DNA of 40,000 nt from Synechococcales cyanobacterium C42_A2020_086 (GCA_015272325.1 JACYLU010000028.1:259294-299293); one strand, 5' to 3'. Numbered from the stretch's first letter, positions 12,911 to 31,720 are shown. Translations and numbers: made by a program. The notes: generated from the sequence alone by a model not told the origin.

Positions 12911-12946
12911 TTGATGAATGAACGAATGAATTATCTGATGAATTAG

Positions 12947-15277: not shown

Positions 15278-15343
15278 CGGTACATCTCCTGGAAACGCTG
15301 GTGCTATGCACCGAGCCAATTACTACCAATTACTAGAGGGCGA

Positions 15344-16445: not shown

Positions 16446-17296
16446 TGCCTGACCATCCTCACTTGAGTATTGTGCGGCAATGTCAATTGCTCAAGCTTGC
16501 TCGTTCTAGTCTTTACTACCAGGCGAAAGACCCATCGGACGAGGAGTTGACCTTACTGCAATTAATCGACCAGCAATATTTGGAAACCCCGTTTTACGGC
16601 AGTCGGAAGATGACACTCTTCCTCCGAGAGCAGGGCTATCGCATCCATCGCAAACGAACGCAGCGATTAATGCGACAACTCGGGATTGAAGCAATTTATC
16701 CCAAGCCCAAGTTGAGTCAACTGCACCCAGAACACCGAGTCTATCCGTATCTGTTGCGCAATGTGGCAGTGAGTGCAGCAAATCAAGTCTGGTCTACTGA
16801 TATCCCTTATCTGCCTGTGCTCAAAGGTCATTTTTATCTGGTTGCCATTATGGACTGGTACAGTCGGAAGGTTCTCAGTTGGCGCATCTCCAACACACTG
16901 GAGGTTGACTTTTGCCTGGATGCACTCCGAGCTGCATTATCAGACTATGGCACCCCAGAGATCTTCAACAGTGACCAGGGCAGTCAGTTCACCTCTCATG
17001 CTTTCACAGATGGTCTCCATGCCTCTGGGGTACAAATCAGTATGGATGGCAGAGGGCGTTGTCATGACAACATTTTCATTGAGCGGTTGTGGCGATCGTG
17101 CTCCGCACGGTTCGGAGAACCATCGATCAAGTATGAGTTGATTTATTTGAAAGCATTTGAGGATGGGAAACATTTGAATCGGGAGGTGAATTACTGGTTT
17201 GAGTGGTATAACCAAGAGAGATTTCATCGAGCATTGGAGTACAAAACACCGAATCAGGTGTATTATGAAGATAACTGTATTGTGAATGAAAGCTAG
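16442..17296 (+). CDS. IS3 orfB (DDE integrase-like catalytic subunit)
   Basis: VWSTDIPYLPV...YLVAIMDWYSRKVLSW...FNSDQGSQFTS...HDNIFIERLWRS is an rve-type DDE core. An apparent ~10-aa insertion (CSARFGEPSI) interrupts the conserved ERLWRS-KYE block. Confidence 0.8.
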   Translation: MMPDHPHLSIVRQCQLLKLARSSLYYQAKDPSDEELTLLQLIDQQYLETPFYGSRKMTLFLREQGYRIHRKRTQRLMRQLGIEAIYPKPKLSQLHPEHRVYPYLLRNVAVSAANQVWSTDIPYLPVLKGHFYLVAIMDWYSRKVLSWRISNTLEVDFCLDALRAALSDYGTPEIFNSDQGSQFTSHAFTDGLHASGVQISMDGRGRCHDNIFIERLWRSCSARFGEPSIKYELIYLKAFEDGKHLNREVNYWFEWYNQERFHRALEYKTPNQVYYEDNCIVNES

Positions 17297-17659: not shown

Positions 17660-19885
17660 TTAACTAATGAAATCTAATGCCCTGATGCCACTGAGAATAG
17701 TACGAACAACCCCACTTTTTCCTCGGCAGGGAAGTAAGATGACTTGCCCAGTTAAGGCTCCACTTTTGTCTAGGTCAGACACAATTTGACTTAAGTCATG
17801 CCCCATATATCCAGTAATGACGGCAACCAAGTCACAATTGCTGATCTTACTTTGAATACTGTTACGACTAATATGGCTTTCACTAGAAGGAGCTATCTCA
17901 GTAATATCTTTCATATTGTATGTTTCAGTTAGCTCACGAACCACTTCCCGCCGCGTAGCTGTATGTCCGCCGACCAATGCCAAACGCAGAGCCGATAGGT
18001 CGAGGGGAGAATCTGGGATCTCATCCCCTGGAGAAGTTTGAATACCGAGTTTTGCCGCTTCAGAGAGGCTCTGCTGCTGGTACTCAACAAGTTGGGACAC
18101 AACTTCTGAGCTGAGGTAGTATAGGGCACGTTTCAAATCCTGGAAAAAAGCTTCCTCTGAACGACCTTGCCGTATAGCATTATCAATTTCATTGATCGCA
18201 AGTCCTTGATACTCATTGCTGAGATTCTGACGCAATCTTGGCAGAGTATCGATATAGGGTTCTAGCCCCTCAAGCAATTCAAAATGTTGTTTACGACTAA
18301 TTTGTTGGGTTCCTGTAAGTATCCGTAATTCAGTCAACTCAACTTCTAATTTATCCATTTGCCCCTGGCTGGCTAACCAATCTAACCAGTCACCGTAGGC
18401 AATGAGCAATTTATCTGTTTGGTTGAGGTGTTTCCAAAGGTCTAGACGCACCTTCAAAATATCTTCGGCATTTAACAGACTAACCAACTGCGAACCTGCT
18501 GTTTCAATACACTGTTCATAGTAGATAACCTCTTGTTCAGAAGAGATATCACCGAATCCTCTTAGTGAAGCAAGCGTGGCGATATGGGCTCGATCTTCCA
18601 ATAGCAATGTTTCAGGGGCAACATCTATCAAGATTAGGTAGACCTCAGCCGCGTTTTCTGGGTTGCCTTCTGTAGCCCAAAGCCTTGCTAAAGGTAGGAG
18701 CATTTCGACTTGTCTCTCTCCAGACTGCCAAGCTTTCTCAAGAAACGGGCGAGCTTGGGATTTTTGTCCCATCCAATAGAGAGCAGCACCCCGTAAACCA
18801 GATAGGCAAGGAGGAAGTTCAGTAACTGAATCTGATAGCAGATTAATTACTTCCTTGAAGCGGTTATTGGATAGAAGGAGTTCTATTTGCCGAACCTGAA
18901 TCTCTTCTTGCTCCTCGGTAGTTTTAGCAGGAATTGATTGGTAAAGGTCTAGGGCTTTATTCGCATCCCCAACTGCCCGATAGGATGCTGCCAAGTTAAG
19001 CAGAACAGGAACAGACTGAGGATGCTTGGCTTGCAACACCTCCAATTTTGGAATACGCTCTACTGGCGCAATTTCGACTAACTGAGCTAATTGCTCACCA
19101 AGAGTGCCATCTGTTACTGGCTCAATCGTTTCCTGGGGATTCATTGCCTGATGGAGAAGTCTCCGTACTCCATCTGCTTGGCGAATTCGTTCTAGTTCTG
19201 GTAAGAATTCTTGAGCAATTTGCTGGGCAGATTGTAGCAGTTCCGGTAAGTTCTCCTGTTGAGAGCGTTGAATATGAGCATGCACAAGTTGCTCAACCAA
19301 CCTACCGGAGACAGGCAAAGCTAGAATTTCATCGCGTTTGATAGAAAAAAGGTCTACCAATTGCTCCGTTTTGTCTGTACGAGCATATAGAGTAATCAAC
19401 GAGCGAAGAGTATTGCCATCACCCTCAGCTAATTGCTGAAGCAGTTGCTCTTCAGCTTCTGTGACCTGCCCAATCCTGATTTGCTGTTCAATGCGGTTTG
19501 GATTAATTCCCTGAACCGTACTGGTTGGTGAAGGAATATCCTCGCTTAGTTGCTTGATGATGCTACGAAATTGAGCTTGCCACGATTTGAACGTTTGAAT
19601 TGCCTTTGCTTCTTGCTTAGAATAATCAGCAACTACTTTGGCGTTATTGACAGCATAAGAAGTTTCAATTGATGCCCACCCCTGTTGTAATTCCTCCTCG
19701 GTGGCTGTGACATAGGTGAAGTGAGTGTACTCCCCATGGAGAGATGGCATTAATTTTGTAACTTTGAAGCGTTCTCGGAGTGCCCGATGCAGTTCCTCTG
19801 CTTGTAACTGGCTGACGCACTTGAGGCGTAACCCCACTTGCTCAGAACCTCCAAGCTTAGAAACAATTTCGTATTGAAATTTCAT
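17660..19885 (-). CDS. TPR-repeat protein with a C-terminal DUF2325-like domain (last gene of the effector operon)
   Basis: 741 aa. The central region has TPR-like helices (LLNLAASYRAVGDANKALDLYQSI, LPLARLWATEGNPENAAEVY). The C-terminal ~110 aa, LALVGGHTATRREV...CDLVAVITGYMGHDLSQIVSDL...ILLPCRGKSGVVRTI, resemble DUF2325. The start overlaps the PLD stop as ATGA. Confidence 0.5.
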   Translation of the reverse strand: MKFQYEIVSKLGGSEQVGLRLKCVSQLQAEELHRALRERFKVTKLMPSLHGEYTHFTYVTATEEELQQGWASIETSYAVNNAKVVADYSKQEAKAIQTFKSWQAQFRSIIKQLSEDIPSPTSTVQGINPNRIEQQIRIGQVTEAEEQLLQQLAEGDGNTLRSLITLYARTDKTEQLVDLFSIKRDEILALPVSGRLVEQLVHAHIQRSQQENLPELLQSAQQIAQEFLPELERIRQADGVRRLLHQAMNPQETIEPVTDGTLGEQLAQLVEIAPVERIPKLEVLQAKHPQSVPVLLNLAASYRAVGDANKALDLYQSIPAKTTEEQEEIQVRQIELLLSNNRFKEVINLLSDSVTELPPCLSGLRGAALYWMGQKSQARPFLEKAWQSGERQVEMLLPLARLWATEGNPENAAEVYLILIDVAPETLLLEDRAHIATLASLRGFGDISSEQEVIYYEQCIETAGSQLVSLLNAEDILKVRLDLWKHLNQTDKLLIAYGDWLDWLASQGQMDKLEVELTELRILTGTQQISRKQHFELLEGLEPYIDTLPRLRQNLSNEYQGLAINEIDNAIRQGRSEEAFFQDLKRALYYLSSEVVSQLVEYQQQSLSEAAKLGIQTSPGDEIPDSPLDLSALRLALVGGHTATRREVVRELTETYNMKDITEIAPSSESHISRNSIQSKISNCDLVAVITGYMGHDLSQIVSDLDKSGALTGQVILLPCRGKSGVVRTILSGIRALDFIS

Positions 19886-20394
19886 AACAGTTGAACCGCC
19901 TGGTCAAAATGCTGGATGCAGTGCTGGCGAAGCTGAGCGATGCTCCGCTCATCATGGCAGTAGTTGTACAACTCAATGTTTTGGTTTACACCACCATCGG
20001 TTAGGTTCAGGGAACCGTCAAGGGCACCGTAGTGGCCAACGTAGGCTTTCGTATGTAGAGCGGATAGGACACGAACCTGGATTCGATCGCTGCGTTTTGC
20101 AAGCTGTCTCAGCGCAGAATGATAATCGGAGTCATCTCCAACAGTAATAAAAATGCTCCCACCATTTGCTGAAATTTGGTGAAGAATATCAAACAAATGA
20201 AGGGAATCTTGTTTGGTTTCAACGACCTCCTGAAAAGAAACATAGTAGGGATTTGCGAGTCGAAAGTTAGTGACCCAGGGAGCAACAATCCAAAACTCAA
20301 AGTGATCGCCTAGCTGTGAGGCAAGCACTTCATTCAGCAGAAAGTTGTAAATCATCGCCTGACCACTGCGTTGTAGGGTTGATCGCTTCGCCAT
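19882..20394 (-). CDS. PLD-superfamily (HKD-type) nuclease-like protein
   Basis: A single PLD-like motif, LHTKAYVGHYGALDGSLNLTDGG (H-x-K ... GS-x-N). The size and N-terminal WIVAPW strand are typical of NucT/DrmC-type nucleases. The ATG at 20394 follows GAGG by 8 nt. The upstream ATG at 20433 would overlap the helicase gene by 29 nt. Confidence 0.65.
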   Translation of the reverse strand: MAKRSTLQRSGQAMIYNFLLNEVLASQLGDHFEFWIVAPWVTNFRLANPYYVSFQEVVETKQDSLHLFDILHQISANGGSIFITVGDDSDYHSALRQLAKRSDRIQVRVLSALHTKAYVGHYGALDGSLNLTDGGVNQNIELYNYCHDERSIAQLRQHCIQHFDQAVQLL

Positions 20395-20404
20395 AGAATA
20401 GACC

Positions 20405-23400
20405 TCACTCAATAGGACGGATCGTAATTTCAATTGCAGGAGATTGGCTGACTGTCAGGTCAGTCGGATAGACGGTCTGAATGTCAGTAATCATGGGATA
20501 GATCATCCCTAAGTCTGTATCAATGCCAGCATCTGTTAGATAACTGATTGTGGTACAAAGCGAAGAGAGCCGATCGCTGGGTACTCGTAAGTAAATCGCT
20601 TGATATCCTTTCTCTAGAAGATGTCTGATTTGTTCACCTATGGATGTTATGGCTGTGTCATCATTTTCACCCTCTAGCGTCAGTGTCTGGCTAGCATGGG
20701 CCTGGGTTAACCATTCAGTAAGAAGTGGACGATTCAGCAAATTTCGGCTTAGTCCAGGCGCTTCAATGTCTCCACTGCGCTCATCCAGGCAGTTTGGGCA
20801 GCTACATCGACAAGTCATTAACATGCGGCGCTCTATTGCTGATTCAAATGCGCGGCGGACTTCATTTTCTGCTGTACCATACTCAATTCTGTAGAGTTGG
20901 AGGAGGCGAGCCAGTTCTGGGTAAGGAAGTGCTTGGTCTGAGAGGTTTAGAGAACTTGCTACAGTGCGGTAGAGAATTGATTTTGCCTCTGTGAATGAGG
21001 GGTCGCGACCAAACTGCTGAGTGCAGGAGGGCAGAAAGTCTTGGTTAATTTCTCTAAAGATGCGCCAGTTTATTAGACGGTTGCCATCAACTTGTTGAGT
21101 GTAGTCAGGAATAAAGACTCTCAGCAAAGCCTTAAGCTGCTTTTGTTGCACAATAACTTGTAACTGCTTGCGAACTGCTACGAGCAAACCCTCAATGGCT
21201 ATCTGGCGATCGCTAGAACTGCGAGCTTGGATCACAGCATTCACAAGTGCCTCGCAGTGGGCTAACCAATCTTGGGGTTGAGCCAGTAAATATCGAAGGA
21301 ATGCTTCCTCCTGAGCAGTTGGACAACGGGTCATGCGATGCGCCAATGTTGTCCAAAAGCGATCTGGGTTCTTCCGCAAAAGATCTTGGGTTGCACGCAT
21401 GACGCCAATACCACCCATACCAATTTCATACAGCCAGATAGGTTTAATGACTTCATTGCCAAAGTCGATTCGTAATCTAGTCCATGCTGAAACATAGTTC
21501 AATGCTTCAACTCCAGCTATTTCTTGAGCTACCTGCTTTAATGCTACGGTCAAACTATATTGAAAGGTGTCTTGTAGATAGTCTTGGTACAGGGCACCCT
21601 CCGATCTGAACTCCTCGTAAAGATCTAAAAAAATTGATAAGTAGTCATTTGGGCTAGCAACCAATTGCATGACCGCCTCAGTTTTCTTCGGTGATAATTG
21701 ATGAATTTGGTTAACTGATTGAGTGAACTGACGGTTGAATTCGTTGTTACCTGCTACCAGCCAATTTCGTAAACCATCTGGTGTCCCTGCCTGCTCATGG
21801 CACCAGTTATCAGCAAGAGACAAAAGAACATTCACTAAATTTTCAGCGGCAAAATAGCTTTCTCCAGACTCAACAGTCAGGTTAGTGATAAAGGCATGCC
21901 GAACTGCATTATTGCGAAGGGTAGCTTTTGTGGAAGGCGAGAATATAGAGGTTGATAGGGCATCAGGATTGAGGTTGATGCTGATTCCCTCAGTGATAAG
22001 TTGATAGCCTAAGGCACAATTAGTGTTGGCATCTTCATCAGCAGTAAAACCAACAACCTGTCTAATATCCTCTGCTTTAGCTTCATGAAACTTAAGTGTG
22101 TATTGGCTGCCAAGTATGATACGACGAACATCCAGGAGATTCAAATTGTCAGGCTCATCACTGTAGAGCACAATATCCTGGACTAAATTCTGCCCGAGAC
22201 TGTCACAAGCGACTGGTTGATCGGTTGGTTTGAAGGTGTATTTAGACGTAGCAACATCACGGATTGGTCGGATATAAACTGCACTAATAGACTGGGCTGA
22301 GCACGAGTGAGCCAGTTGATACATATCCTGTGGTGCATCCTCAGTTCTACGACACTCTCGAAGTTCACCTGTATCAGGCTTGCAATACCAGAATGACGAA
22401 TTGTAGTCACGACTGAATTGCTGAGGTTCAATTTGAGTAGGGCGATAGAGGGTTAGAAATTTATCACTACGAGGAGTGATGCCAACTAACTTAAGCGCAC
22501 GTTTTGGTAGATTAACCGTGCTAGGGCTGTTCTCAATCCGATCTTTTGATGTGTAGTATCGACTGAGAGGAATCAGCGATTGCCCATCTGGAGTGACAGG
22601 GGGTATCCATGTTGAGCCTTCCCCACCGCGAAAGGTTACATTTCCCGGTATGGTTTCACTGATTGCTAGACTGATGCTTTCCGGATCAAGGCGCTTATCA
22701 AAGCGACGATCGTCAGGGCGATAATCTACACGCACCTCTGGTAAATTGATGTCTGAGAACAAGTTTTCTGGCAAGTGCTGCGTGAGCATCGGACGGGCTT
22801 TAACCGTTTGCTCGTTCTCACGATCAAACTTTGGATGCACAGCCTTCATGAGTCCCTCGAAAAAGATGCTCCAGAGAAACCCATCTGAATCCACATCTCC
22901 CAATACACGTATTAATGTATTGCTATCTGCGATCGCGAACGATTCCTTCAAGTAGTCCTTGAACTTGAGCATCATATTCATATTGACTGTCTGGTTCAGC
23001 AAATACTGATAGCCCTGACGCGATAGCTTTTCTAAATCGAGTTCTATCCCTACAAGGTGTGCTTGATATGTCAACCAGTCAAACAGCGCATAGAAGCCGT
23101 GAATTCTTTGGAGGTAGCGGTTTTGGGCATTAAGAGGAAGTTTTTGGAAGGTCGGGTCTGTCAAGAGATGCTCATTCCGAAACAAAAATAAGTCGGTCGG
23201 CTTATAAGGACTGAGCACAGTAACGACAATCGGTCGGGTGCCCACTTTACGCCCTCCTCTTCCCTTACGTTGAACAAAGCTGGCGATATTTGCGGGGGCA
23301 GTATATTGAATGACGCACATCAGTGCCTCATCATCGTATCCAACCTCTAAAGCACTGGTGGTAATGACAAGGTCATCATCATCTTCAATAACAACAGAGC

Positions 23401-25375
23401 GATCGCTCCCTGATTTACGCTTAATATTCAATGGTTCTTGACGAGCTTTTCCTTTCTGGCTCAGTACCCACCAGCATTCCCCCGCCTGAAAAAGTGGGCA
23501 GTTTGGGTTCGGAGTTTGGGTTCGTTCACAGTTACAGTTGTACTGCGTCGTAGGTCCAAAGAAATTAGGAAAGAGTTGACGATTAAGGGGAGGATAACGA
23601 TAGGCATACAGAGGAACATATCTAATTGGATAGGTATCGTCCGTAGGACGAACTCCCTGTCCCTTCAACTCTTGACGCCTTTCAGCTTGGTAGTCTTTGA
23701 CCTTTTCAGCATCTTGCATCTGATACAGCCAGCGACCAACGATATCTAATGACTGCACAAATCCAAAGGTACGGTAGCGCTTCAAATCACCATCTGTTGC
23801 TGGTTGCGGCATCGTATGCAGCACACACATTGCTGTTTGGATTAAGGATGAAAGAACAGCAGTATCCTCAGTATCTTCAGCGCGAGCGAAGATAAAGCGC
23901 TCTGCCCCAATAATCTGCATCTCATGATCTTGGGGCTTTACCTCTTCAATCCGAACTGGGTCAATGCCGGAAAGTTCCGACAGAAATTGTTTAGGATGGG
24001 CGATCGTGGCACTAAGACCAACAAAGGCAAGGTTGGCTGGTTCCTCGCGATCGCGCTTGCCCATCCGAATTCTTGCCAGTAATCGCCGCAGTAATAGGGC
24101 GACTTGGGTACCAGACGTGGAAGTCTGCAAGTGAATTTCATCCAGCATTACTACAGAGGGAGCACAGAAGGTTGCATTCCCAAACAGGTATTGGTATTCC
24201 GAAGAGATTAACCGTCGATGGAGGGATTCTGTTGTTGCGATGAGAAGGTCAGGTGGTTCCTTCTTCATCACATCACGGGCAAATTTGATAAAGGGGTAGG
24301 CTTTACTGCACTCCGGACACACCAATAGTTCAGGCTGTGTTGGGCGCGAAAGCAACCGTTGAGGCTTCGTATCACAGCTATGCCCCTCTGTGCCGACACA
24401 ATAAGCGAAAGGAGACAAATAGCCCTGATGCTCTTCGCTGAACGTCCAACCTCGTTGCTTAGCTAGTTTTTTCTGCTGAGATTCATCGATCTTTTGAAAG
24501 TCTTTAATTTGGTAAACGGCTGCACCACTTTCCACGCCAATTGTAATGGCGGGGAGGTTATTGGCAACCAGCACCTGGTTCAGGTGATATAGAACCTCAA
24601 TAAAATCGGTGAGTTGATTTTCTGAAAGTGCGACCCGTGGGTAAATACAAATTGCTTTAACTCCGACACGTTGCCGAAGACAGCGCTCCAGCACCATCTT
24701 AGCTAACACCGGAAGGAAGAATGCATAGGTTTTTCCGGCACCTGTGCTGGCTGTGACTACCACTCCTCGTTCGATACTCTGCTGCGGCTCTAGTTCGATC
24801 GCCTGCAAAATGGCCCTCAAAGTACGGCGTTGGAAGCCGCTCATCTGTTGGAGTTTGGTCAGGGTCTGCTCAATCACCGTTAGCAGGAGGTCGGCAGTTT
24901 GTTGCTGTTCTGAATTACCAGCAAGCAATGGCCCCATGCAGGTTCGGACAGGAATGTTACGGCGTGGAACCCGGCGAGAGGCAACGCTAAACTTCACATC
25001 CTCAATCAACCGCTTACTTTTGCTAATCCGATGAGCAGCTTTACCAGGATTGTGGTTGACAATACGTTGGCGAAGTTTAGTCAAAAGTCGGACTGTTTCT
25101 GCAACTCGGCTACGAAAAACCCAGTTTTCTGGCAATTCTTCCTGATCAAACCGAATGATTTGCAAATTAATAGCAAGTTGTTCTAGAGCCTGGGTAATTG
25201 CTGAGGTTCTTGCTTCTGGTGGTAACTGAATATCATCTGAGGGTTGAAAGCTCCGAATGACTTCACTTCCTGTCAAGGTTAAGTCGTAAATGCCATAAGC
25301 AATTTGCTCAGCCTCACGCTGCTCAATAAAGGTCAAGACTTCATCGGCTAGATGCTTGATAGTTTCAGAATTCAC
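20405..25375 (-). CDS. giant superfamily-2 DEAH-type helicase with a C-terminal DUF1998 (MrfA-type) Cys cluster; DrmA/DpdE-like
   Basis: 1656 aa with a GTG start. Walker A is ASTGAGKT (24728-24751), motif II is DEIH (24131-24142) and motif VI is QRKGRGGR. The CRCSCPNC cluster sits at 20789-20812. Two further Cys4 inserts lie inside the helicase core. Confidence 0.8.
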   Translation of the reverse strand: MNSETIKHLADEVLTFIEQREAEQIAYGIYDLTLTGSEVIRSFQPSDDIQLPPEARTSAITQALEQLAINLQIIRFDQEELPENWVFRSRVAETVRLLTKLRQRIVNHNPGKAAHRISKSKRLIEDVKFSVASRRVPRRNIPVRTCMGPLLAGNSEQQQTADLLLTVIEQTLTKLQQMSGFQRRTLRAILQAIELEPQQSIERGVVVTASTGAGKTYAFFLPVLAKMVLERCLRQRVGVKAICIYPRVALSENQLTDFIEVLYHLNQVLVANNLPAITIGVESGAAVYQIKDFQKIDESQQKKLAKQRGWTFSEEHQGYLSPFAYCVGTEGHSCDTKPQRLLSRPTQPELLVCPECSKAYPFIKFARDVMKKEPPDLLIATTESLHRRLISSEYQYLFGNATFCAPSVVMLDEIHLQTSTSGTQVALLLRRLLARIRMGKRDREEPANLAFVGLSATIAHPKQFLSELSGIDPVRIEEVKPQDHEMQIIGAERFIFARAEDTEDTAVLSSLIQTAMCVLHTMPQPATDGDLKRYRTFGFVQSLDIVGRWLYQMQDAEKVKDYQAERRQELKGQGVRPTDDTYPIRYVPLYAYRYPPLNRQLFPNFFGPTTQYNCNCERTQTPNPNCPLFQAGECWWVLSQKGKARQEPLNIKRKSGSDRSVVIEDDDDLVITTSALEVGYDDEALMCVIQYTAPANIASFVQRKGRGGRKVGTRPIVVTVLSPYKPTDLFLFRNEHLLTDPTFQKLPLNAQNRYLQRIHGFYALFDWLTYQAHLVGIELDLEKLSRQGYQYLLNQTVNMNMMLKFKDYLKESFAIADSNTLIRVLGDVDSDGFLWSIFFEGLMKAVHPKFDRENEQTVKARPMLTQHLPENLFSDINLPEVRVDYRPDDRRFDKRLDPESISLAISETIPGNVTFRGGEGSTWIPPVTPDGQSLIPLSRYYTSKDRIENSPSTVNLPKRALKLVGITPRSDKFLTLYRPTQIEPQQFSRDYNSSFWYCKPDTGELRECRRTEDAPQDMYQLAHSCSAQSISAVYIRPIRDVATSKYTFKPTDQPVACDSLGQNLVQDIVLYSDEPDNLNLLDVRRIILGSQYTLKFHEAKAEDIRQVVGFTADEDANTNCALGYQLITEGISINLNPDALSTSIFSPSTKATLRNNAVRHAFITNLTVESGESYFAAENLVNVLLSLADNWCHEQAGTPDGLRNWLVAGNNEFNRQFTQSVNQIHQLSPKKTEAVMQLVASPNDYLSIFLDLYEEFRSEGALYQDYLQDTFQYSLTVALKQVAQEIAGVEALNYVSAWTRLRIDFGNEVIKPIWLYEIGMGGIGVMRATQDLLRKNPDRFWTTLAHRMTRCPTAQEEAFLRYLLAQPQDWLAHCEALVNAVIQARSSSDRQIAIEGLLVAVRKQLQVIVQQKQLKALLRVFIPDYTQQVDGNRLINWRIFREINQDFLPSCTQQFGRDPSFTEAKSILYRTVASSLNLSDQALPYPELARLLQLYRIEYGTAENEVRRAFESAIERRMLMTCRCSCPNCLDERSGDIEAPGLSRNLLNRPLLTEWLTQAHASQTLTLEGENDDTAITSIGEQIRHLLEKGYQAIYLRVPSDRLSSLCTTISYLTDAGIDTDLGMIYPMITDIQTVYPTDLTVSQSPAIEITIRPIE

Positions 25376-25408
25376 AGGTAGAGCCTTTTGAGAAAGAGCA
25401 TTATGAGT

Positions 25409-27205
25409 TCACGCATCACTGACCAACTCAGCATCGTAACCTTCTAGAAAATCTGCAAGTCGCTTGTTTGCGTCAGGAGTGTGAATAGGAATGGGCACAG
25501 CCTCCACACCTGTAGCGTCATAGCTCACTAACAACCAATCTCCTTTCTTAAATTTGAAAGTTTGACGAAACATTTCGTCACCTAAACCAAACGCATCTCG
25601 AATTCGTTCTCGATCGGACTTACGTGGCAACTTAGAAATGAAATAGGTGTGAGGTTGAGCTAGGATACTGGTATTTAGATAAGTAATCCGTTGCGTTGCA
25701 ATTCCAATCCCCAAGCCAAACTTCCGACCTCGACGAGCTAACGTCATAGCAATGTCTGTGGAATTTTTATAGCTACCTGATTCTTGTTGGGGAATAAATT
25801 CATCAGCTTCATCAAATACAAAGCTAACAAGAGGACTAATTAAACCCTGGCTACGGCGCTCTTCATAGGCTGCGTCTCCTAACCAACTGCTGAAATCCCT
25901 AAGTTCATCAGGGTTATGGGCTTGAATGATAAATAAATTCTTCGTTTCTTTTTTGTTAAGTTGTTCAACCATCCAAGAAATGTTAACTCGTGCTTCCTGA
26001 GGAAGAGGGGGATTACGGGAAAAGTCTTTAACAGCAGCAGATAGTTTACTCTGTAAGTTTTCTAAACTCTTCTTACCGTTAGCACCCTTTATGTCCTGGA
26101 TACTCGCAGCAATTTTCTCTAAGGCTCCTTGGGCAACCTCCACTGAGAATTTGGTCTCAATTCCACCTAATTCCTGGATTAAGGGGTCAAGCTTTTTCTC
26201 ATCATCACCAGCAATCTTCCCTGATTTAGATTCCTGCCACAGCTCCAAAATTAACGAACCTAAGCTTTTATCAGCACTAACACGTTGGTAAACTTTAATT
26301 TTGCCATCCGTCAGCAATTGTCGATAAATAGGGGTTAGGGACTTGCTATATTTCCTGAGTGCTTTGGGGAGAAGGGCTGTTTTTGCCATTGCTTCCGCCG
26401 CTGCATCTAGCTTACTTTTGTCACCTGCGAGAAATTGTCCCACTTCTCCAGGAAAAGTTTGGGACCCTAGACCAATAAGGTAGGCTCCTGGATGTTGTAC
26501 AAGCAAATCCAGAACCAACGTTGCATACTCACTCATTAAATCAAAGAAGACAAAATTAGTTGGTTCTTTGCTCTCTTGATAAAGCTTAGAAACTAGCGTA
26601 GATAGCAAATTGGATTTTCCAGCCCCCGTAAAACCAAAAATGCCAAAGTGAACTTGCAACAGTTCATCAGCAAGAGCATAAACTTCAATATTCGGTTCTC
26701 GGATGAGGTTGCCAACTACAATCACGTTATTGTAGTTTGGATCAAGTTCTCTGTTGAGAATTTTACGAGTTAAATCGTTATCAATTGGGTATATATCTGC
26801 TCCTGTCATTGGCAAATTCGATTCTTCTAAAATCTGATTATTTTCGTCTACTTCTAAATTAGTAGGGATGGCGAGAACTCGAATCTGAGTGGTATCTTCT
26901 CGAACTTCATCTTCCTGATCACGCCAATCTGTGAATGCACTTTTAGCAGCTTCCTTAACAAAACCAGGATAGCCACTAGCATTTTCTCCAAGCCCATAGT
27001 GAACAGGCAGTAAGGAAACTACTTCCAGAATGTTGTACCGATAGCCATCACGATTACTGGAAAAGTTAGGGACTGCCAGTAAAGCTCCTTCCCGAATTTT
27101 TTCCATATTTTTGCGAGTGTATTCAAACCAAATTTCGCATTGGTAGCGACTCTGCTCATCTTCCTGGAGACTAATTAATGTGCCTTTGATGTTAGTAATA
27201 AACAT
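25409..27205 (-). CDS. HerA-like (DUF87, FtsK/HerA-clade) ATPase
   Basis: 598 aa with an N-terminal barrel-like domain. Walker A is GIFGFTGAGKSNLLS and Walker B is VSFVFDEADEF, followed by GLGIGIATQR. AAGGA lies 8 nt before the ATG. Confidence 0.75.
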   Translation of the reverse strand: MFITNIKGTLISLQEDEQSRYQCEIWFEYTRKNMEKIREGALLAVPNFSSNRDGYRYNILEVVSLLPVHYGLGENASGYPGFVKEAAKSAFTDWRDQEDEVREDTTQIRVLAIPTNLEVDENNQILEESNLPMTGADIYPIDNDLTRKILNRELDPNYNNVIVVGNLIREPNIEVYALADELLQVHFGIFGFTGAGKSNLLSTLVSKLYQESKEPTNFVFFDLMSEYATLVLDLLVQHPGAYLIGLGSQTFPGEVGQFLAGDKSKLDAAAEAMAKTALLPKALRKYSKSLTPIYRQLLTDGKIKVYQRVSADKSLGSLILELWQESKSGKIAGDDEKKLDPLIQELGGIETKFSVEVAQGALEKIAASIQDIKGANGKKSLENLQSKLSAAVKDFSRNPPLPQEARVNISWMVEQLNKKETKNLFIIQAHNPDELRDFSSWLGDAAYEERRSQGLISPLVSFVFDEADEFIPQQESGSYKNSTDIAMTLARRGRKFGLGIGIATQRITYLNTSILAQPHTYFISKLPRKSDRERIRDAFGLGDEMFRQTFKFKKGDWLLVSYDATGVEAVPIPIHTPDANKRLADFLEGYDAELVSDA

Positions 27206-27214
27206 GGTTAGTCC

Positions 27215-29035
27215 TTATCGCTTGGCGCTGTCACGAATACTGCGGAATGTACGAGCAAGAGGATTTGAGCGGAGCATATAGTCAACACTCCGCATCATGT
27301 CAGCTAAACGGCGACCGACTGTTTTAGCTCCCCAATCAGCTTTATGTAATGGGTCAGGGTAACCAATTACTTCAGCAAAGTGATTGCGACAGAGTTCACT
27401 GAGCAAGTACATTACCAACGACTGTCCAATATTCCCTTCCGTAGCATCGGATCGAAAGTAAGGATTGACCTTACCCAGCGTCGAAGTTTGAATTTTGTCA
27501 GATAAGACAGCAGTTTTATCCCAACGAGGGTAGAGCAGACGTTCGACAAAAATTACATGCCCCATTAAAGGACCAGAAGGCTTATTTTGTAGGAAAAATT
27601 GCCCTAATGATCTTGCTGTTAACCGTTCGGGAGCCAAAATATCTCCCCGCACACCACTTAGAGTTCGAGTATTATTATCTTCCTGCTGCACAAACAGAGT
27701 CATGAAGACACTATCAAACTCTACGGTGGACCAAGGAGCCTCCAGACTCTCGTTAATTACTGGAAGAAGCTCTAAAGCAATTCGATCAGTGGCAGGTAGA
27801 GGACGATTAAACGAATTCAACTCCGGAAAAACGTTAAGTAGACGCATCACACCCAAATAGTTGCGTGAAAAATACGCGGAAGATGAATCCTTCACCAAGC
27901 CAACAAGCAGCACATTCCGTTTCCAACTCTCCTCGATCAGCAATCGCAATCCAACACCGATCAAAAACTTCAGGTCTGTTGGTCCCATCCATCGCTGTTT
28001 ACGGATTTCGTTGTGTTGAATGTCATAAGTTAAGGCTGTTGAATCTTTGGCAACGAAAAGTCTTTCACAAATAGTTTGAAAAACATCCTTGACGTATGCC
28101 CATGATGCATCAATAGTATTTGCTCCAGTCCATTTCAACTTTGTTCCATCTTGTTCGGCTAATCTTCGTTTAGTTAAGTAATCTACTCCAGGTGCTAGCT
28201 GCTCAATTGTAAGCCCTGCTTCATTGGCTAATTGGGCTAAATCAACTTCACCTCCTTGTTGCTGCATTTTGGCAAGCAGACCTGTATATTGCCGAAAACG
28301 TTTAAGAGTGGGTATACCCAAATCCTTATTAAAAGGATGAGCAAGCGCAACCATTACATCGGCTTCTGTAAGCTGACGTGTACCCCAATCGCTTCCAATC
28401 ATTCGTACAACTCCTGGCTGTACCATATTCGAGGCCATGATCGAGGAAATTGATTGGTCGAGAAGAACCATATTTGGGGCATCTGTACGGCTGCTAGAGA
28501 CTGTGTCATAGGCTAAGTACACCTCTGCAAGTTGCATCAGAAGAGTATGGATACCTGCTAAGCTAACCTTTTCAAAATCGCTAACTGCAAATGGATCTCG
28601 ATTCTCCTCAAGTACGTCTTCCAGTTCTGCATAAGGTATAGGAACTTGTGCAACTACCGAAACATCTTGTTCTAGTGACCATTTGTGGTAGCGCAGTGTG
28701 GGAGGAGTACCTTTTAGATCTAAAGAGCCTTTTGCTCCATAAGCTCCGGCATAGAAGAGCAAGAATTGAGAGGTTTCTTCAGCCTGACATGTTCCATCAA
28801 TAGCAACGAAATGAACCTCGTCACGCCCAAAGAAATCTCGAATCTGATCACGAAGGCGAATTAACTTGGGCTGTGAAGAAAACTCTGTCTTCCAGGCTTT
28901 GACAAGATCTTTAAGTTTGCAATCATACAGTTCCTGAACGACATCAACATGTTGTTCATAAAGAGATTCGCTACGATCTTGCCCAAACCGGAGGCTCTCC
29001 TCAAATCCTCGAAAAATATTTGAGAGCTTAGACAC
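27215..29035 (-). CDS. NurA-like nuclease with an inserted middle domain
   Basis: 606 aa with a GTG start. The NurA-type motif series is HFVAIDGT, MQLAEVY, MVLLDQSISS, LVGLVKDSSS and the C-terminal IGYPDPLHKADW. About 100 aa are inserted between motifs. Confidence 0.65.
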   Translation of the reverse strand: MSKLSNIFRGFEESLRFGQDRSESLYEQHVDVVQELYDCKLKDLVKAWKTEFSSQPKLIRLRDQIRDFFGRDEVHFVAIDGTCQAEETSQFLLFYAGAYGAKGSLDLKGTPPTLRYHKWSLEQDVSVVAQVPIPYAELEDVLEENRDPFAVSDFEKVSLAGIHTLLMQLAEVYLAYDTVSSSRTDAPNMVLLDQSISSIMASNMVQPGVVRMIGSDWGTRQLTEADVMVALAHPFNKDLGIPTLKRFRQYTGLLAKMQQQGGEVDLAQLANEAGLTIEQLAPGVDYLTKRRLAEQDGTKLKWTGANTIDASWAYVKDVFQTICERLFVAKDSTALTYDIQHNEIRKQRWMGPTDLKFLIGVGLRLLIEESWKRNVLLVGLVKDSSSAYFSRNYLGVMRLLNVFPELNSFNRPLPATDRIALELLPVINESLEAPWSTVEFDSVFMTLFVQQEDNNTRTLSGVRGDILAPERLTARSLGQFFLQNKPSGPLMGHVIFVERLLYPRWDKTAVLSDKIQTSTLGKVNPYFRSDATEGNIGQSLVMYLLSELCRNHFAEVIGYPDPLHKADWGAKTVGRRLADMMRSVDYMLRSNPLARTFRSIRDSAKR

Positions 29036-29285
29036 GTTGCTCTTCTCCTAAATCCTTAAATTTTTGCCCCATCCTGGCACGAGCTAATTTACGTTGCTCT
29101 AGTAACTCATCAAGGAGACTGGGTCGTTCCTCAGCGTCTGACCAGTCCTTAATAAACCGTTTTAGAGCAACGTTGACCATATCCTGAATGGTGGGAGCAG
29201 CACTTTGATACTGCTGCTCCAGAGGCAGTCTAATTTCGCGTAGTGTTTCATAAAGGTCATCCGGCACACGGACTGTTGATGGCAA
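29028..29285 (-). CDS. ribbon-helix-helix (CopG/Arc-like) DNA-binding protein, first gene of the effector operon
   Basis: 85 aa. STVRVPDDLYETLREI (beta strand plus helix) followed by IQDMVNVALKRFI fits an RHH fold. The start appears to be TTG. The stop overlaps the NurA-like GTG start (GTGTCTAA). Confidence 0.5.
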   Translation of the reverse strand: MPSTVRVPDDLYETLREIRLPLEQQYQSAAPTIQDMVNVALKRFIKDWSDAEERPSLLDELLEQRKLARARMGQKFKDLGEEQRV

Positions 29286-29404
29286 GGGGAAATTACCTGA
29301 GTTAGGGACTTCCGCATTTTATGCGTCTTGACAAAAGGCTTGCTACCATGTATGCATGTATGCAGGCTTAGAAATATCTAAATTCCCATCCAGAGGAAAC
29401 TGAA
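29286..29404. promoter_or_regulatory. divergent control region between the effector operon and the DGQHR gene
   Basis: Contains TTGACA (29328-29333) and the palindrome CGCAT-TTT-ATGCG (29313-29325). A tandem CATGTATG x2 lies at 29347-29362, TATGC occurs three times, and GAGGAA precedes the ATG at 29405. Confidence 0.4.
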
Positions 29405-30499
29405 ATGGAGCTTGTGCTTCCTGCTGTACCAGTCCAGAGAGGTTCTGAAGGCGATCACATAAGCTATGTGGCTAGCTTTACATTCGGTGACATTACTCGG
29501 TTGTTGGATGATGGACGGTTGTATGTGCCAAACCAACCTGACCTGCCCGACTTCGCTCAGCGGAAACCAAATCCTGTTCGGATTAAGGCGATCGCCCAAT
29601 ACATCCTGGAAACCTACCAGGAAGGCACCACCTTTTTCCCTCCAATTTGTGTCAATGTACAGCCACCGCCGACCTACCGAAATGGCAATGTTTACTTGCC
29701 CTATCACTCTGTAACCCTACGGTTAACCGATGGGCAACACCGTTGTTTTGGAATTCGTCAGGCAATCAAGGATATTCAGGCTCAAGATTTGGTGAACCTG
29801 GGAATTCTTTCGCAACTGGAATTAGGCGCTCTGCTGTATGCTGGGCTGCCACTTGAACTAGAGCGCCAAGCATTCCGAGATCAGAATTTGCTGGCACAGA
29901 GACCCGGCACGTCGTTGTCCCATTTATTTGATAAGCGATCGCCCACCGTATTGATCGCCAAAAACCTGATGGACAGAATCCCTCAGTTTCGCAATAACGT
30001 AGAGACCATTGAGAATGGCTTAGGTAAACATAATCCCAAATTGCTGACCTTATCTACATTGGTGACAGCAACACAACATATGTACCCAGGCTTGCGCTCC
30101 CAAAAAGATTTAGAAGAGCGTACTAATTGGGCCACAGCATTCTGGTGTGCTGCTGCAAGGGGCTTTTCTGATGATCCTTGGATGTCTAGAACCGCCCAGG
30201 ATCGTAACCGCCAACGAGAGCAGTCGTTAGCGGTTAGTGCTGTGGTCTTTCAGGCATTGGGACTGTTGGCGCGAGATCTCTACCTGGAGGGAGTTCCAGG
30301 TGAAGATCTGGATAAATGGCTAGTGAGACTAGGAGAGATGGATTGGCGGCGGGAAAATAATTTCTGGTTAGAACGAGGAGTTACCCAGGTTGGGGCGCAG
30401 GGAACCCCTATTTTGTCCAACACCCGAACCACGGTTGATGCGTGCCATCGAGTTCTGCGGGAATTCGTTGGTATTATCCCCACTGCTTTAAGCGTTTAG
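29405..30499 (+). CDS. DGQHR-domain protein (DndB/DpdB family, ParB/Srx-like fold)
   Basis: The literal DGQHR motif is in context (VTLRLTDGQHRCFGIRQAI). The length (364 aa) and the upstream F.PPI.VN block are typical of DndB-like proteins. Confidence 0.8.
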   Translation: MELVLPAVPVQRGSEGDHISYVASFTFGDITRLLDDGRLYVPNQPDLPDFAQRKPNPVRIKAIAQYILETYQEGTTFFPPICVNVQPPPTYRNGNVYLPYHSVTLRLTDGQHRCFGIRQAIKDIQAQDLVNLGILSQLELGALLYAGLPLELERQAFRDQNLLAQRPGTSLSHLFDKRSPTVLIAKNLMDRIPQFRNNVETIENGLGKHNPKLLTLSTLVTATQHMYPGLRSQKDLEERTNWATAFWCAAARGFSDDPWMSRTAQDRNRQREQSLAVSAVVFQALGLLARDLYLEGVPGEDLDKWLVRLGEMDWRRENNFWLERGVTQVGAQGTPILSNTRTTVDACHRVLREFVGIIPTALSV

Positions 30500-31678: not shown

Positions 31679-31720
31679 GGCGATAGCTCAGTGGTGCGAT
31701 CCTGCTCTCTGATCTTAATC

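What the first reader, a model, noticed from the sequence alone, without database searches (positions are those of the whole stretch)
17660..29285. Six-gene translationally coupled operon: RHH - NurA-like - HerA-like - DEAH/DUF1998 helicase - PLD - TPR/DUF2325
The junctions were read directly from the sequence:
- The RHH stop overlaps the NurA-like GTG start (GTGTCTAA, 29028-29035).
- NurA to HerA has a 9-nt gap containing AAGGA.
- HerA to the helicase has a 33-nt gap.
- The helicase stop is followed by GAGG and the PLD ATG 10 nt later.
- The PLD stop overlaps the TPR-protein start as ATGA (19882-19885).

NurA/HerA pairs are known as archaeal and Deinococcus-type end-resection machines. HerA-clade ATPases partner with nucleases in several defence systems. 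DUF1998 helicase plus PLD is the DISARM core.

I have not seen both pairs in a single operon, capped by a DUF2325-type protein. This suggests a multi-enzyme DNA-degrading effector.
Basis: partly seen in the sequence, partly recalled or inferred. Interest (0 to 1): 0.9.

Follow-up and report, generated by a model that had tools for sequence, protein, structure and literature searches.

The report
Deazaguanine DNA defence with two nuclease cassettes
This cyanobacterial gene cluster looks like a restriction-modification system that marks its own DNA with a 7-deazaguanine base and, unusually, has two different DNA-cutting machines in one operon; one of them (NurA-HerA) turns out to sit beside DNA-marking enzymes in many bacteria and archaea.

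Summary
The six-gene minus-strand operon is real, and every junction is as described. The PLD gene starts at the ATG at 20394.

The part identities mostly hold:
- The 606-aa protein has a NurA fold with an inserted wHTH.
- The 598-aa protein is HerA.
- The helicase and PLD match DpdJ and DpdK (Dpd system), not the DISARM core.
- The TPR/DUF2325 protein sits where DpdD sits and shares DpdD's C-terminal domain.
- "RHH" has no profile support.

The operon lies in a low-GC island flanked by IS elements. The island also carries QueD/E/C, a DpdC-like–DpdA fusion, a second TGT-like gene and a DndB-like gene.

Related loci show two independent cassettes behind one conserved small gene. DpdJ-K-D-like occurs alone in about 11 cyanobacterial islands, including the closest relative, and NurA-HerA occurs alone in others. 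Both together were found only in this organism's own contigs.

In 40 genomes from bacteria and archaea, NurA-like/HerA had a TGT-like gene within 5 kb in 27. Six others had a C5 DNA methyltransferase abutting the pair.

Best reading: a Dpd-type R-M island with two stacked restriction modules. I found no description of the NurA-HerA–TGT link in the searchable literature. Function is inferred only.

The parts
29028..29285 (-). Small conserved protein (85 aa) at the head of the effector operon. It is a putative DNA-binding regulator. The ribbon-helix-helix assignment is unverified.
   Evidence: Homologues precede either NurA-like or DpdJ-like genes in 18 loci. No Pfam, PDB or PADLOC profile hit supports RHH. 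A strand-helix-helix pattern (STVRVPxELYExL ... APTxQDMVNVALKRFIxDW) is visible in alignment A10.
27215..29035 (-). NurA-like nuclease (606 aa) with an inserted winged-helix domain.
   Evidence: AlphaFold2 model has pLDDT 83 and pTM 0.86. The Foldseek PDB top 10 are all NurA (9x1m_G 6.7e-9, 2ygk, 3tai), followed by wHTH proteins. Weak Pfam NurA hits occur in 21 of 27 family members; the window protein itself scores only E 0.12. Invariant D80, E171, D193 and K382-D383-S384 appear in alignment A1.
25409..27205 (-). HerA-clade hexameric ATPase/translocase (598 aa).
   Evidence: Pfam DUF87 2.7e-15, above cut-off. PADLOC HerA 1.1e-93. Best PDB match is HerA of the T. kodakarensis HerA-NurA complex, 6.9e-16. 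Walker A (GFTGAGKS) and Walker B (FDEADEF) are present in the translation. HerA lies directly downstream of the NurA-like gene in 65 of 70 loci with room.
20405..25375 (-). DpdJ-like YprA/Lhr-type SF2 DExH helicase (1656 aa), from a distinct ~1650-aa subfamily of cyanobacteria and Chloroflexi.
   Evidence: NCBIfam DpdJ 1.8e-158, but 529.6 bits is below the 800 cut-off. PADLOC DpdJ 7e-162 against DrmA 1e-21. Canonical DpdJ is 27-28% identical over ~55% of the length. PDB matches are Lhr and YprA/MrfA. Motifs GAGKT and DEIH are present, as is the invariant C1522/C1526/C1529 cluster.
19882..20394 (-). DpdK-like single-domain PLD nuclease (170 aa).
   Evidence: NCBIfam DpdK 3.8e-22, 78.6 bits against a cut-off of 100. 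PADLOC DpdK 5.1e-24. H114-T-K116 ... G127-S-L-N130 motif in the translation.
17660..19885 (-). DpdD-like protein (741 aa): small N-terminal alpha/beta domain, TPR solenoid, and a C-terminal DUF2325-like alpha/beta domain.
   Evidence: Model has pLDDT 84, and Foldseek returns only TPR proteins. Pfam TPR_19 2.7e-6; DUF2325 6e-4, below cut-off. hhalign against DpdD gives probability 96.1%, E 2.9e-9, over the C-terminal ~110 aa. It occupies the same position after DpdJ-DpdK that DpdD holds in 23 of 23 canonical loci.
29286..29404 (.). Divergent intergenic region between the effector operon and the DndB-like gene. It is the presumed promoter/operator and contains TGCATACATGCATACATGG.
   Evidence: Sequence read. 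The upstream part is conserved in L100. It is deleted, together with the 5' third of the small gene, in contig L007.
29405..30499 (+). DndB/DGQHR-family protein, the likely DpdB-equivalent ATPase/DNA-binding partner of DpdA.
   Evidence: Pfam DndB 5.9e-75. NCBIfam DGQHR 4e-29, above cut-off. Conserved next to the small gene in 18 loci.
31721..32602 (-). Second, divergent TGT-like protein ('u293', 293 aa) lacking the Zn subdomain.
   Evidence: No Pfam hit. Family alignment A2 against DpdA alignment A3 gives hhalign probability 99.3%, E 1.8e-20. Shared motifs are DSGVF, GVAQG and IAIGGLL. Relatives follow HerA in many loci and are fused to DUF6884 in archaea.
33828..35921 (-). DpdC-like (DUF6884) - DpdA fusion: a DNA-guanine transglycosylase with a putative preQ0-to-ADG hydrolase domain.
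   Evidence: NCBIfam DpdA 1.6e-143, 478 bits against a cut-off of 200. Pfam DUF6884 3.1e-8 and TGT. PADLOC DpdC 1.5e-10 on residues 7-103. DUF6884 is related to YaaA/DUF328, the DpdC family (PMC11701544).
35900..37696 (-). QueC (35900-36622), QueE (36634-37320) and QueD (37307-37696): the preQ0 synthesis genes.
   Evidence: NCBIfam QueC 1.1e-65 and QueE 2.6e-36. The QueD/PTPS ORF of 129 aa carries the CGRMHGH motif and has a PTPS annotation in L007.
30496..33859 (.). Three genes of unknown function lying between the DndB-like gene and dpdA: 30496-31188 (-), 31175-31678 (-) and 32708-33859 (+).
   Evidence: No significant family hits. The 383-aa protein has homologues in L100, L108 and L109.
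16442..17296 (+). IS3-family transposase at one edge of the island.
   Evidence: NCBIfam IS3 2.7e-76. GC falls from 0.55-0.61 to 0.41-0.47 inside the island.
38494..39567 (+). IS701-family transposase at the other edge of the island.
   Evidence: NCBIfam IS701 4.5e-63.

Best explanation
The operon is the restriction half of a Dpd-type 7-deazaguanine restriction-modification island in a Synechococcales cyanobacterium. It is a composite of two separable effector cassettes, transcribed behind one small conserved (probably regulatory) gene.

Modification side (inferred from family assignments):
- QueD/E/C make preQ0.
- The DpdA domain exchanges it for guanine in host DNA, helped by the DndB-like protein.
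- The fused DpdC-like DUF6884 domain may convert it to the amide (dADG).

Restriction side (inferred):
- Cassette 1 is a HerA hexameric translocase with a NurA nuclease carrying a wHTH insert. It threads and degrades DNA that lacks the mark.
- Cassette 2 is the DpdJ-like helicase, the DpdK-like PLD nuclease and a DpdD-like TPR scaffold. This is the conserved J-K-D core of Dpd restriction.

Shown here: the identities, the gene order, the modular distribution, and the cassette-level difference from the nearest relative.

Inferred: that both cassettes read the same 7-deazaguanine mark, that NurA-HerA is an effector rather than a helper of modification, and that the six genes form a single transcript.
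For: - Dpd context: DpdA is above its curated cut-off, and QueC, QueE, QueD, a DndB/DGQHR protein and a DpdC-like domain are all present.
- DpdJ and DpdK are by far the best matches for the helicase and the PLD.
- The J-K-D order holds in 23 of 23 canonical Dpd loci, and the C-terminal domain is homologous to DpdD.
- NurA fold and HerA identity are confirmed.
- Modularity: the same modification genes (DpdC-DpdA, u293, DndB, small gene) are followed by one of four arrangements. These are NurA-HerA alone (L009, L089); UvrD+PD-(D/E)xK plus NurA-HerA (L088, L090, L005); DpdJ-K-D-like alone (L091, L094-L100, L104, L111, L115); or both, which occurs only in L007/L008, this organism's own contigs.
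- The nearest island, L100 (DndB 86%, QueC 88%, DpdJL 81% identical), has a ~170-nt spacer where the window has the 3.65-kb NurA-HerA cassette.
- Across phyla, 27 of 40 fully flanked NurA-like/HerA loci have a TGT-like gene within 5 kb and 25 have DUF6884. Six of the other 13 have a C5 DNA methyltransferase abutting the pair. A nuclease/translocase paired with interchangeable DNA-modifying enzymes is the R-M pattern.
- Putative catalytic residues are invariant in the NurA-like family.
Against: - There is no experimental evidence of any kind.
- Minimal four-gene systems (DUF6884, NurA-like, HerA, TGT) have no DpdB. Because DpdA needs an ATPase in Salmonella (PMC10164549), HerA could instead serve modification.
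- DpdE-I, which belong to canonical Dpd restriction, are absent.
- The DpdJ, DpdK and DpdD-like proteins all fall below the curated equivalog cut-offs.
- The joined arrangement was found in one organism only, so it may be a recent recombination product without selected cooperation.
- A population variant (L007) has deleted the promoter region and the 5' third of the small gene. The operon may be costly or dispensable.
- The catalytic residues of the NurA-like protein were not superposed on solved NurA.
Confidence: 0.6

Rival explanations
1. NurA-HerA belongs to the modification machinery, not to restriction. HerA supplies the ATP-driven DNA opening or translocation that DpdA-type transglycosylases need (the role of DpdB in Salmonella). 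NurA nicks or positions the DNA. Only DpdJ-K-D-like restricts.
For: - Minimal DUF6884 - NurA-like - HerA - TGT modules in Thermodesulfovibrio, Fimbriimonadales and others have no DpdB/DndB and no other ATPase.
- DpdA needs an ATPase for base exchange in vitro (PMC10164549).
- The linkage of NurA-HerA to TGT-like genes is tight, and the genes often overlap.
Against: - The same NurA-HerA pair abuts C5 methyltransferases, which need no helper, in at least six archaeal and bacterial loci.
- Cyanobacterial islands carry DndB as well as NurA-HerA.
- Sister islands modify, presumably, without NurA-HerA: L100 and L094-L099 have DpdC-DpdA, u293 and DndB but no NurA-HerA.
- NurA-HerA occupies the same slot after the small gene as the helicase-nuclease cassettes.
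- The acidic residues of the nuclease are invariant.
Confidence: 0.2
2. One reading: all six proteins form one multi-enzyme DNA-degrading effector that combines an end-resection pair with a DISARM core.
For: - Tight or overlapping junctions would allow stoichiometric co-expression.
- The TPR protein could bridge components.
- YprA-family helicases are shared by DISARM and Dpd (preprint 10.1101/2025.09.15.676423).
Against: - DISARM models score far below Dpd models.
- No DrmB, DrmMI/MII or DrmD-type genes were found in the window.
- The two halves occur independently in dozens of loci, and together only here.
- The junction with L100 shows a simple cassette difference.
Confidence: 0.1
3. NurA-HerA here is a housekeeping double-strand-break end-resection machine, as in archaea and Deinococcus, that happens to lie in the island.
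For: The closest solved relatives are the archaeal repair HerA-NurA complexes.
Against: - The family is sparse: 363 representative clusters among 1.84 billion proteins.
- It is patchily distributed and is linked to TGT-like genes, DUF6884 or methyltransferases.
- It lies in a low-GC island bounded by IS elements.
- It sits beside integrases in a close relative.
- It has no Mre11/Rad50 neighbours in this window.
- It is 606 aa with a wHTH insert, against 320-430 aa for solved NurA.
Confidence: 0.04

Closest known systems
Dpd system (dpdA-dpdK; 7-deazaguanine restriction-modification of Salmonella Montevideo and others)
   Same: - DpdA is above the curated cut-off.
- preQ0 genes are present.
- There is a DpdC-like domain and a DndB/ParB-like partner.
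- A DpdJ-like helicase, a DpdK-like PLD and a DpdD-like protein occur in the canonical J-K-D order.
   Different: - No DpdE, F, G, H or I.
- DpdC is a DUF6884-type domain fused to DpdA.
- There is an extra TGT-like paralogue.
- DpdJ, K and D are a divergent subfamily below the equivalog cut-offs.
- DpdD is replaced by a TPR protein that shares only the C-terminal domain.
- A NurA-HerA cassette and a small leader gene have been added.
Archaeal/Deinococcus HerA-NurA end-resection complex (e.g. PDB 9x1l-9x1p, 2ygk, 3tai)
   Same: NurA fold, HerA ATPase, adjacent genes, and probably the hexamer-plus-dimer architecture.
   Different: - The NurA-like protein is ~200 aa longer and has a wHTH insert.
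- There is no Mre11/Rad50.
- It is linked to DNA-modifying enzymes and lies in a mobile island.
- The window protein is not recognised by Pfam NurA at threshold.
HerA-partnered defence systems (Sir2-HerA, DUF4297-HerA, DndFGH/SspFGH HerA domains, BRC system of PMC12839542)
   Same: A HerA-clade ATPase is coupled to an effector and, in Dnd/Ssp/BRC, to a DNA modification. BRC also sometimes carries a TGT.
   Different: - The partner here is a NurA-fold nuclease.
- BRC has PglZ, DUF6079, STAND, DUF4007 and GNAT but no NurA.
- The HerA here is closer in sequence to NurA-partnered HerA than to Sir2- or DUF4297-partnered HerA.
DISARM (DrmA/B/C with a methyltransferase)
   Same: YprA-family helicase followed by a PLD nuclease.
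   Different: - DrmA and DrmC models score far below DpdJ and DpdK.
- The helicase is not split into DrmA and DrmB.
- The PLD lacks the N-terminal four-helix bundle that is typical of DrmC according to the YprA preprint.
- There is no DISARM methyltransferase.
BRIGADE (Dpd-like systems of halophilic archaea, preprint 10.1101/2025.09.15.676423)
   Same: Deazaguanine biosynthesis genes plus YprA helicase(s) and a small PLD nuclease without the four-helix bundle.
   Different: BRIGADE is reported only in haloarchaea, with ARMADA-like YprA, DpdG and DpdHI/BrxC. None of these is present here, and no NurA-HerA is mentioned there.

Membership tests
NurA | RNase H-like NurA fold | tested here: met
   The Foldseek PDB top 10 are all NurA, probability 1.00, E 6.7e-9 to 4.3e-6. 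TM-scores are low (0.3-0.5) because of the inserted domains.
NurA | Pfam PF09376 at gathering score | tested here: not met
   The window protein scores 12.3 bits against a cut-off of 21 (E 0.12). Of 27 family members, 21 give weak hits, the best at 2e-5. The PDB profile search found nothing.
NurA | Conserved acidic catalytic residues | tested here: inconclusive
   D80 (AIDGT), E171, D193 and D383 are invariant in A1. They were not superposed on the catalytic residues of solved NurA.
NurA | Adjacent HerA partner | tested here: met
   65 of 70 loci with room have HerA directly downstream.
HerA | DUF87/HerA central domain above threshold, with Walker A and B | tested here: met
   PF01935 scores 57.5 bits against 23.2. 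GAGKS and DEAD-like Walker B motifs are in the translation. PADLOC HerA 1.1e-93.
HerA | NCBIfam HerA equivalog cut-offs | tested here: not met
   The best score is 76.3 bits against 970, so this is a distinct HerA subfamily.
Dpd system | DpdA DNA transglycosylase | tested here: met
   NF041059 scores 478.4 bits against a cut-off of 200.
Dpd system | DpdB (ParB/DndB-like ATPase) | tested here: inconclusive
   The DndB/DGQHR protein is above cut-off. PADLOC returns DndB and no DpdB model.
Dpd system | DpdC (DUF328-type hydrolase) | tested here: inconclusive
   A DUF6884 domain is fused to DpdA. PADLOC DpdC scores 1.5e-10 over ~100 residues only.
Dpd system | DpdJ equivalog | tested here: not met
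   NF041067 scores 529.6 bits against 800, and canonical DpdJ is 27-28% identical. It is the best hit of all families but a separate subfamily.
Dpd system | DpdK equivalog | tested here: not met
   NF041068 scores 78.6 bits against 100. The HxK...GSxN motif is present.
Dpd system | DpdD | tested here: inconclusive
   No single-sequence DpdD hit. hhalign gives probability 96% over the C-terminal domain only. The position after J-K is the same as in 23 of 23 canonical loci.
Dpd system | DpdE, F, G, H, I | tested here: not met
   None of the window's ORFs of at least 150 aa matches them.
Dpd system | dPreQ0/dADG present in DNA; restriction of unmodified DNA | not testable with these tools
   This needs LC-MS/MS and phage or plasmid assays.
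DISARM | DrmA + DrmB (DUF1998) + DrmC core with DrmMI/MII or DrmD/E | tested here: not met
   DrmA scores 1e-21 and DrmC 2e-3, far below the Dpd models. There is no methyltransferase or separate DUF1998 gene in the window. Pfam MZB/DUF1998 was not detected.
DUF2325 | Pfam PF10087 at gathering score | tested here: not met
   The score is 20.4 bits against 33.6. One homologue carries a precomputed PF10087 hit, and UniRef names the Richelia protein a DUF2325 domain-containing protein.
Ribbon-helix-helix regulators | Match to an RHH profile or structure | tested here: not met
   No RHH family was found in Pfam, NCBIfam or PADLOC, or by PDB profile search, for the protein or for its 14-member alignment. 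No structure model was made.

The most novel reading that the evidence does not exclude
The NurA-like/HerA pair defines a previously undescribed restriction module found in both bacteria and archaea. It works with interchangeable DNA-marking enzymes: DpdA-type or 'u293'-type TGTs plus DUF6884 in about two thirds of loci, and C5 methyltransferases in others. This would imply 7-deazaguanine DNA modification in many archaea and in deep-branching bacteria. This window then shows the module stacked in one operon with the DpdJ-K-D core, a dual-effector Dpd system.
Probability: 0.4. Interest if true: 0.85.

Novelty: new variant of a known kind. Interest (0 to 1): 0.7.

Why it matters
How Dpd systems restrict DNA is unknown, and no specific role has been assigned to any of DpdD-K. 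This locus, with its relatives, offers three things:
- It reduces the restriction side to small, swappable cassettes (NurA-HerA; DpdJ-K-D-like; UvrD+PD-(D/E)xK) behind one set of modification genes. That makes a natural experiment for finding which proteins read the 7-deazaguanine mark.
- It links the well-studied HerA-NurA resection machine to self/non-self discrimination by DNA modification.
- It predicts deazaguanine-modified DNA in archaeal lineages (Methanosarcina, Bathyarchaeia and others). I am not aware of such a report (my own knowledge; not searched).

All of this can be tested directly with a handful of constructs and LC-MS.

Tried and rejected
- The PDB profile search with the NurA-like family found nothing. 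The fold search was needed.
- Rfam and tRNA scans of the window were empty.
- The promoter/terminator scan gave no more than chance, so it neither supports nor refutes a single transcript.
- RHH could not be supported by any profile.
- The unknown protein after HerA in Armatimonadota ('L029x') is not TGT-like by hhalign, but that alignment had only 3 sequences.
- The fold search of the DpdD-like model was dominated by the TPR solenoid and says nothing about the C-terminal domain.
- My first PLD query was off by one base and gave spurious absence. It was corrected.
- The original Dpd paper (PMC4801273) is not held, so I could not check whether it shows HerA-containing cluster variants.
- Literature searches for DpdA+HerA, 7-deazaguanine+NurA, HerA+NurA+transglycosylase, HerA+preQ0, HerA+NurA+TGT, DUF6884, DUF2325 and TgtA5 found no description of this association. 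The nearest is the BRC system, which is a different assemblage.
- I rejected DISARM membership and the housekeeping-repair reading, for the reasons given under the rival explanations.

Full report
**Observation.** The six co-directional minus-strand ORFs exist at the stated coordinates.
- an 8-nt GTGTCTAA overlap at 29028-29035;
- a 9-nt gap before the HerA ATG, with AAGGA spanning the stop codon;
- a 33-nt gap before the helicase GTG;
- a 10-nt gap between the helicase TGA and the PLD ATG;
- an ATGA overlap at 19882-19885.

The PLD gene most plausibly starts at the ATG at 20394 (170 aa). The mechanical ORF list starts it at an upstream in-frame TTG at 20433. A consensus promoter/terminator scan gives no more than chance, so co-transcription rests on spacing alone. 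The genes themselves are real: each has strong homologues elsewhere, in recurring orders.

**What the six proteins are.**
- *606-aa protein.* It has no significant single-sequence family hit. Its family gives weak Pfam NurA hits in 21 of 27 members. A confident AlphaFold2 model (pLDDT 83, pTM 0.86) returns NurA as all ten top PDB matches, including the 2026 T. kodakarensis HerA-NurA complexes. Winged-helix proteins come next. It is therefore a NurA-fold protein with an inserted wHTH. D80, E171, D193 and K382-D383-S384 are invariant in the family.
- *598-aa protein.* This is HerA: Pfam DUF87 is above cut-off, PADLOC HerA scores 1e-93, and the best PDB relative is the NurA-partnered HerA.
- *Helicase.* It is best matched by DpdJ (NCBIfam 1.8e-158, PADLOC 7e-162), far ahead of DISARM DrmA (1e-21). 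It falls below the DpdJ equivalog cut-off. It belongs to a separate ~1650-aa subfamily of cyanobacteria and Chloroflexi, and canonical DpdJ is only 27-28% identical to it.
- *PLD protein.* DpdK-like (5e-24, against DrmC 2e-3), with an HxK...GSxN motif.
- *741-aa protein.* The model shows a small N-terminal alpha/beta domain, a TPR solenoid and a C-terminal four-stranded alpha/beta domain. That C-terminal domain is homologous to the C-terminal domain of DpdD (hhalign probability 96%, E 2.9e-9). In 23 of 23 canonical Dpd loci that contain DpdD, the order is DpdJ-DpdK-DpdD, the same position and size as here. The last three genes are therefore a divergent DpdJ-K-D cassette.
- *85-aa protein.* It is conserved at the head of such operons, but no profile supports the RHH label.

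**Context.** The operon lies in a low-GC stretch (0.41-0.50, against 0.55-0.61 in the left flank) between an IS3 and an IS701 transposase. Divergently transcribed from it is a DndB/DGQHR gene. Further on are three unknown genes and a 293-aa protein with no Pfam hit. That protein's family is a divergent TGT (hhalign against DpdA: probability 99.3%, E 1.8e-20). Then comes a tight operon of QueD, QueE, QueC and a DUF6884-DpdA fusion.
- DpdA is above its curated cut-off.
- The DUF6884 domain hits PADLOC DpdC models, and Pfam's curators relate it to YaaA/DUF328, the DpdC family (PMC11701544).

This is a Dpd-type 7-deazaguanine DNA-modification island without DpdE-I. An identical copy of the 741-aa protein is annotated from Synechococcales cyanobacterium M58_A2018_015.

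**Comparative evidence: two cassettes.** In cyanobacterial relatives the modification genes and the small leader gene are constant, while what follows the small gene varies:
- NurA-HerA alone: L009, L089.
- A UvrD helicase plus a PD-(D/E)xK nuclease together with NurA-HerA: L088, L090, L005.
- DpdJ-K-D-like alone: L091 and L094-L100, plus L104, L111 and L115 where the contig is truncated.
- Both NurA-HerA and DpdJ-K-D-like: only L007 and L008, which are assemblies of the window's own organism.

The DpdJ-K-D-like trio also occurs in Chloroflexi, either in defence islands or next to QueC/E, DUF6884 and DpdA.

The nearest island, L100, is 86% (DndB), 88% (QueC), 85% (QueE) and 81% (DpdJ-like) identical to the window. 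It runs from the small gene straight to the DpdJ-like gene. DNA homology with the window breaks at the 3' end of the small gene and resumes at the helicase start codon. A ~170-nt spacer in L100 takes the place of the 3.65-kb NurA-HerA cassette. The closest NurA-like relative (81% identical) sits beside integrase genes. The six-gene operon is thus a junction of two mobile cassettes. It is not an ancestral unit.

**Comparative evidence: NurA-HerA and DNA modification.** The NurA-like family is small but widespread. It has 363 representative clusters among 1.84 billion proteins. The 79 genome loci come from many bacterial phyla and from Methanosarcina, Methanoperedenaceae, Bathyarchaeia, Nitrosopumilus, Woesearchaeota and an Asgard archaeon.
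- HerA follows directly in 65 of 70 loci with room.
- Of 40 loci with at least 5 kb on both sides, 27 have a TGT-like gene (DpdA-type or u293-type) within 5 kb, and 25 have DUF6884. None has DpdK-like or the TPR protein.
- In archaea the u293-type TGT is fused to DUF6884, mirroring the DUF6884-DpdA fusion here.
- Of the 13 loci without a TGT, six have a C5 cytosine DNA methyltransferase abutting NurA or HerA. Four Armatimonadota loci have an unknown protein there. One has a DpdC-DpdA fusion 7 kb away.

A nuclease/translocase pair tied to interchangeable DNA-modifying enzymes is the signature of a restriction-modification system.

**Mechanism.** Only the identities and distributions are shown here; the functions below are inferred.
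- preQ0 is made by QueD/E/C and inserted into host DNA by DpdA, with the DndB-like protein. The DUF6884 domain may convert it to the amide.
- Unmodified incoming DNA is attacked by two modules. One is HerA-NurA, by analogy with the solved resection complexes: a hexameric translocase feeding DNA to a NurA dimer, with the wHTH insert as a candidate sensor. The other is DpdJ-like/DpdK-like/DpdD-like: an SF2 helicase, a PLD nuclease acting as a dimer, and a TPR scaffold.
- The small leader protein probably autoregulates.

I give this 0.6. The main rival (0.2) is that HerA-NurA assists base exchange, replacing DpdB in the minimal four-gene systems, because DpdA needs an ATPase in Salmonella (PMC10164549). 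Against that rival are the methyltransferase-linked loci, the presence of DndB alongside NurA-HerA in cyanobacteria, and sister islands that keep the modification genes without NurA-HerA. The single-super-complex/DISARM reading (0.1) and housekeeping repair (0.04) are less likely.

**Known versus new.**
- The accessible literature describes Dpd (PMC10164549) and Dpd-like/BRIGADE systems with YprA helicases (preprint 10.1101/2025.09.15.676423). That preprint notes uncharacterised Dpd-like classes.
- It also describes a HerA-centred BRC system that sometimes carries a TGT but has PglZ, DUF6079, STAND and DUF4007 and no NurA (PMC12839542).
- Eight targeted full-text searches found no paper linking NurA-HerA to DpdA/TGT or 7-deazaguanine.
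- The original Dpd paper is not in the library, so prior mention cannot be excluded.

I classify the locus as a new variant of a known kind: a Dpd-type R-M system. The potentially more important by-product is a NurA-HerA restriction module paired with TGT-like or C5-MTase enzymes in bacteria and archaea.

**Caveats.**
- All functional statements are inferences from homology and gene neighbourhood.
- The surveys used six-frame ORFs and HMMs that I built by iteration from the window proteins. Divergent genes may be missed, and helicase hits outside the ~1650-aa subfamily are generic SF2.
- Many loci are MAG contigs.
- The joined arrangement was seen in one organism only. One assembly of it (L007) carries a 199-bp deletion that removes the promoter region and the 5' third of the small gene. 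This may be an assembly artefact, or a sign that the operon is costly.

Noticed in passing
window 29191-29389 (relative to L007:9850-9860): Contig L007 comes from a different metagenome and is otherwise identical to the window. It has an exact 199-bp deletion that removes the whole divergent intergenic region and the first third of the 85-aa gene. L008 matches the window. This is either a natural regulatory knockout variant or an assembly artefact.
   Followed up: partly
window 31721-32602 (-): An unannotated 293-aa protein is a divergent TGT-like TIM-barrel enzyme without the Zn subdomain. Its family follows HerA in many bacterial and archaeal loci and is fused to DUF6884 in archaea. It may insert a different base or act on a different substrate than DpdA.
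   Followed up: partly
L059, L061, L062, L063, L067, L085 (positions ~8400-15300): In Nitrosopumilaceae, Bathyarchaeia, Woesearchaeota, Pacearchaeota and an Asgard MAG, the NurA-like/HerA pair abuts a C5 cytosine DNA methyltransferase instead of a TGT. In Nitrosopumilus there is also an Eco57I-like N6 methyltransferase and a BsuBI/PstI-type endonuclease.
   Followed up: partly
L029:13704-14684, L023, L039, L057: In Armatimonadota loci a conserved ~326-aa protein with no Pfam hit directly follows HerA, in the slot where TGT or methyltransferase genes sit elsewhere. It is not TGT-like by a shallow hhalign.
   Followed up: partly
L091:1544-4343, L104, L111, L115: Richelia-type islands carry a second pair, a small PLD protein plus a bona fide DpdD, upstream of DndB, in addition to the DpdJ-K-D-like trio. 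The PLD + DpdD(-like) pair therefore looks duplicated.
   Followed up: no
L088:4770-8405, L090:4330-7568, L005, L101, L102, L106: A UvrD/GajB-like helicase plus a PD-(D/E)xK (Cas4-like) nuclease pair recurs as a third swappable cassette next to either NurA-HerA or the DpdJ-K-D-like trio.
   Followed up: partly
window 30496-31188 (-), 31175-31678 (-), 32708-33859 (+): Three genes of unknown function lie inside the island. The 383-aa protein is conserved in L100, L108 and L109 next to Dpd-like genes. The 167-aa protein has a faint VapB/DUF2281-like N-terminus, and the 230-aa protein has a faint PD-T4-6 hit.
   Followed up: no
window 29340-29362: A tandem TGCATACA-TGCATACA-TGG motif sits in the divergent intergenic region between the DndB-like gene and the effector operon. 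It is a candidate operator.
   Followed up: no
L091:17785-18099 and L090:214-543: A small MazG-family nucleotide pyrophosphohydrolase gene lies next to the cassettes in two relatives: after the trio in Richelia, and before NurA in L090.
   Followed up: no
window 11533-15319 (-): A copper-resistance cluster (CopA P-type ATPase, a cupredoxin-like protein and a CopM metallochaperone) lies just outside the island, next to the IS3 element.
   Followed up: no
L006:133-804 and L092:1-565: A Vut_1/YhhQ-family (queuosine-precursor transporter) gene lies near the TGT/NurA-HerA module in an Anaerolineae MAG and near the DpdJ-K-D-like trio in a Chloroflexi MAG. This suggests salvage of preQ0 in place of synthesis.
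   Followed up: no
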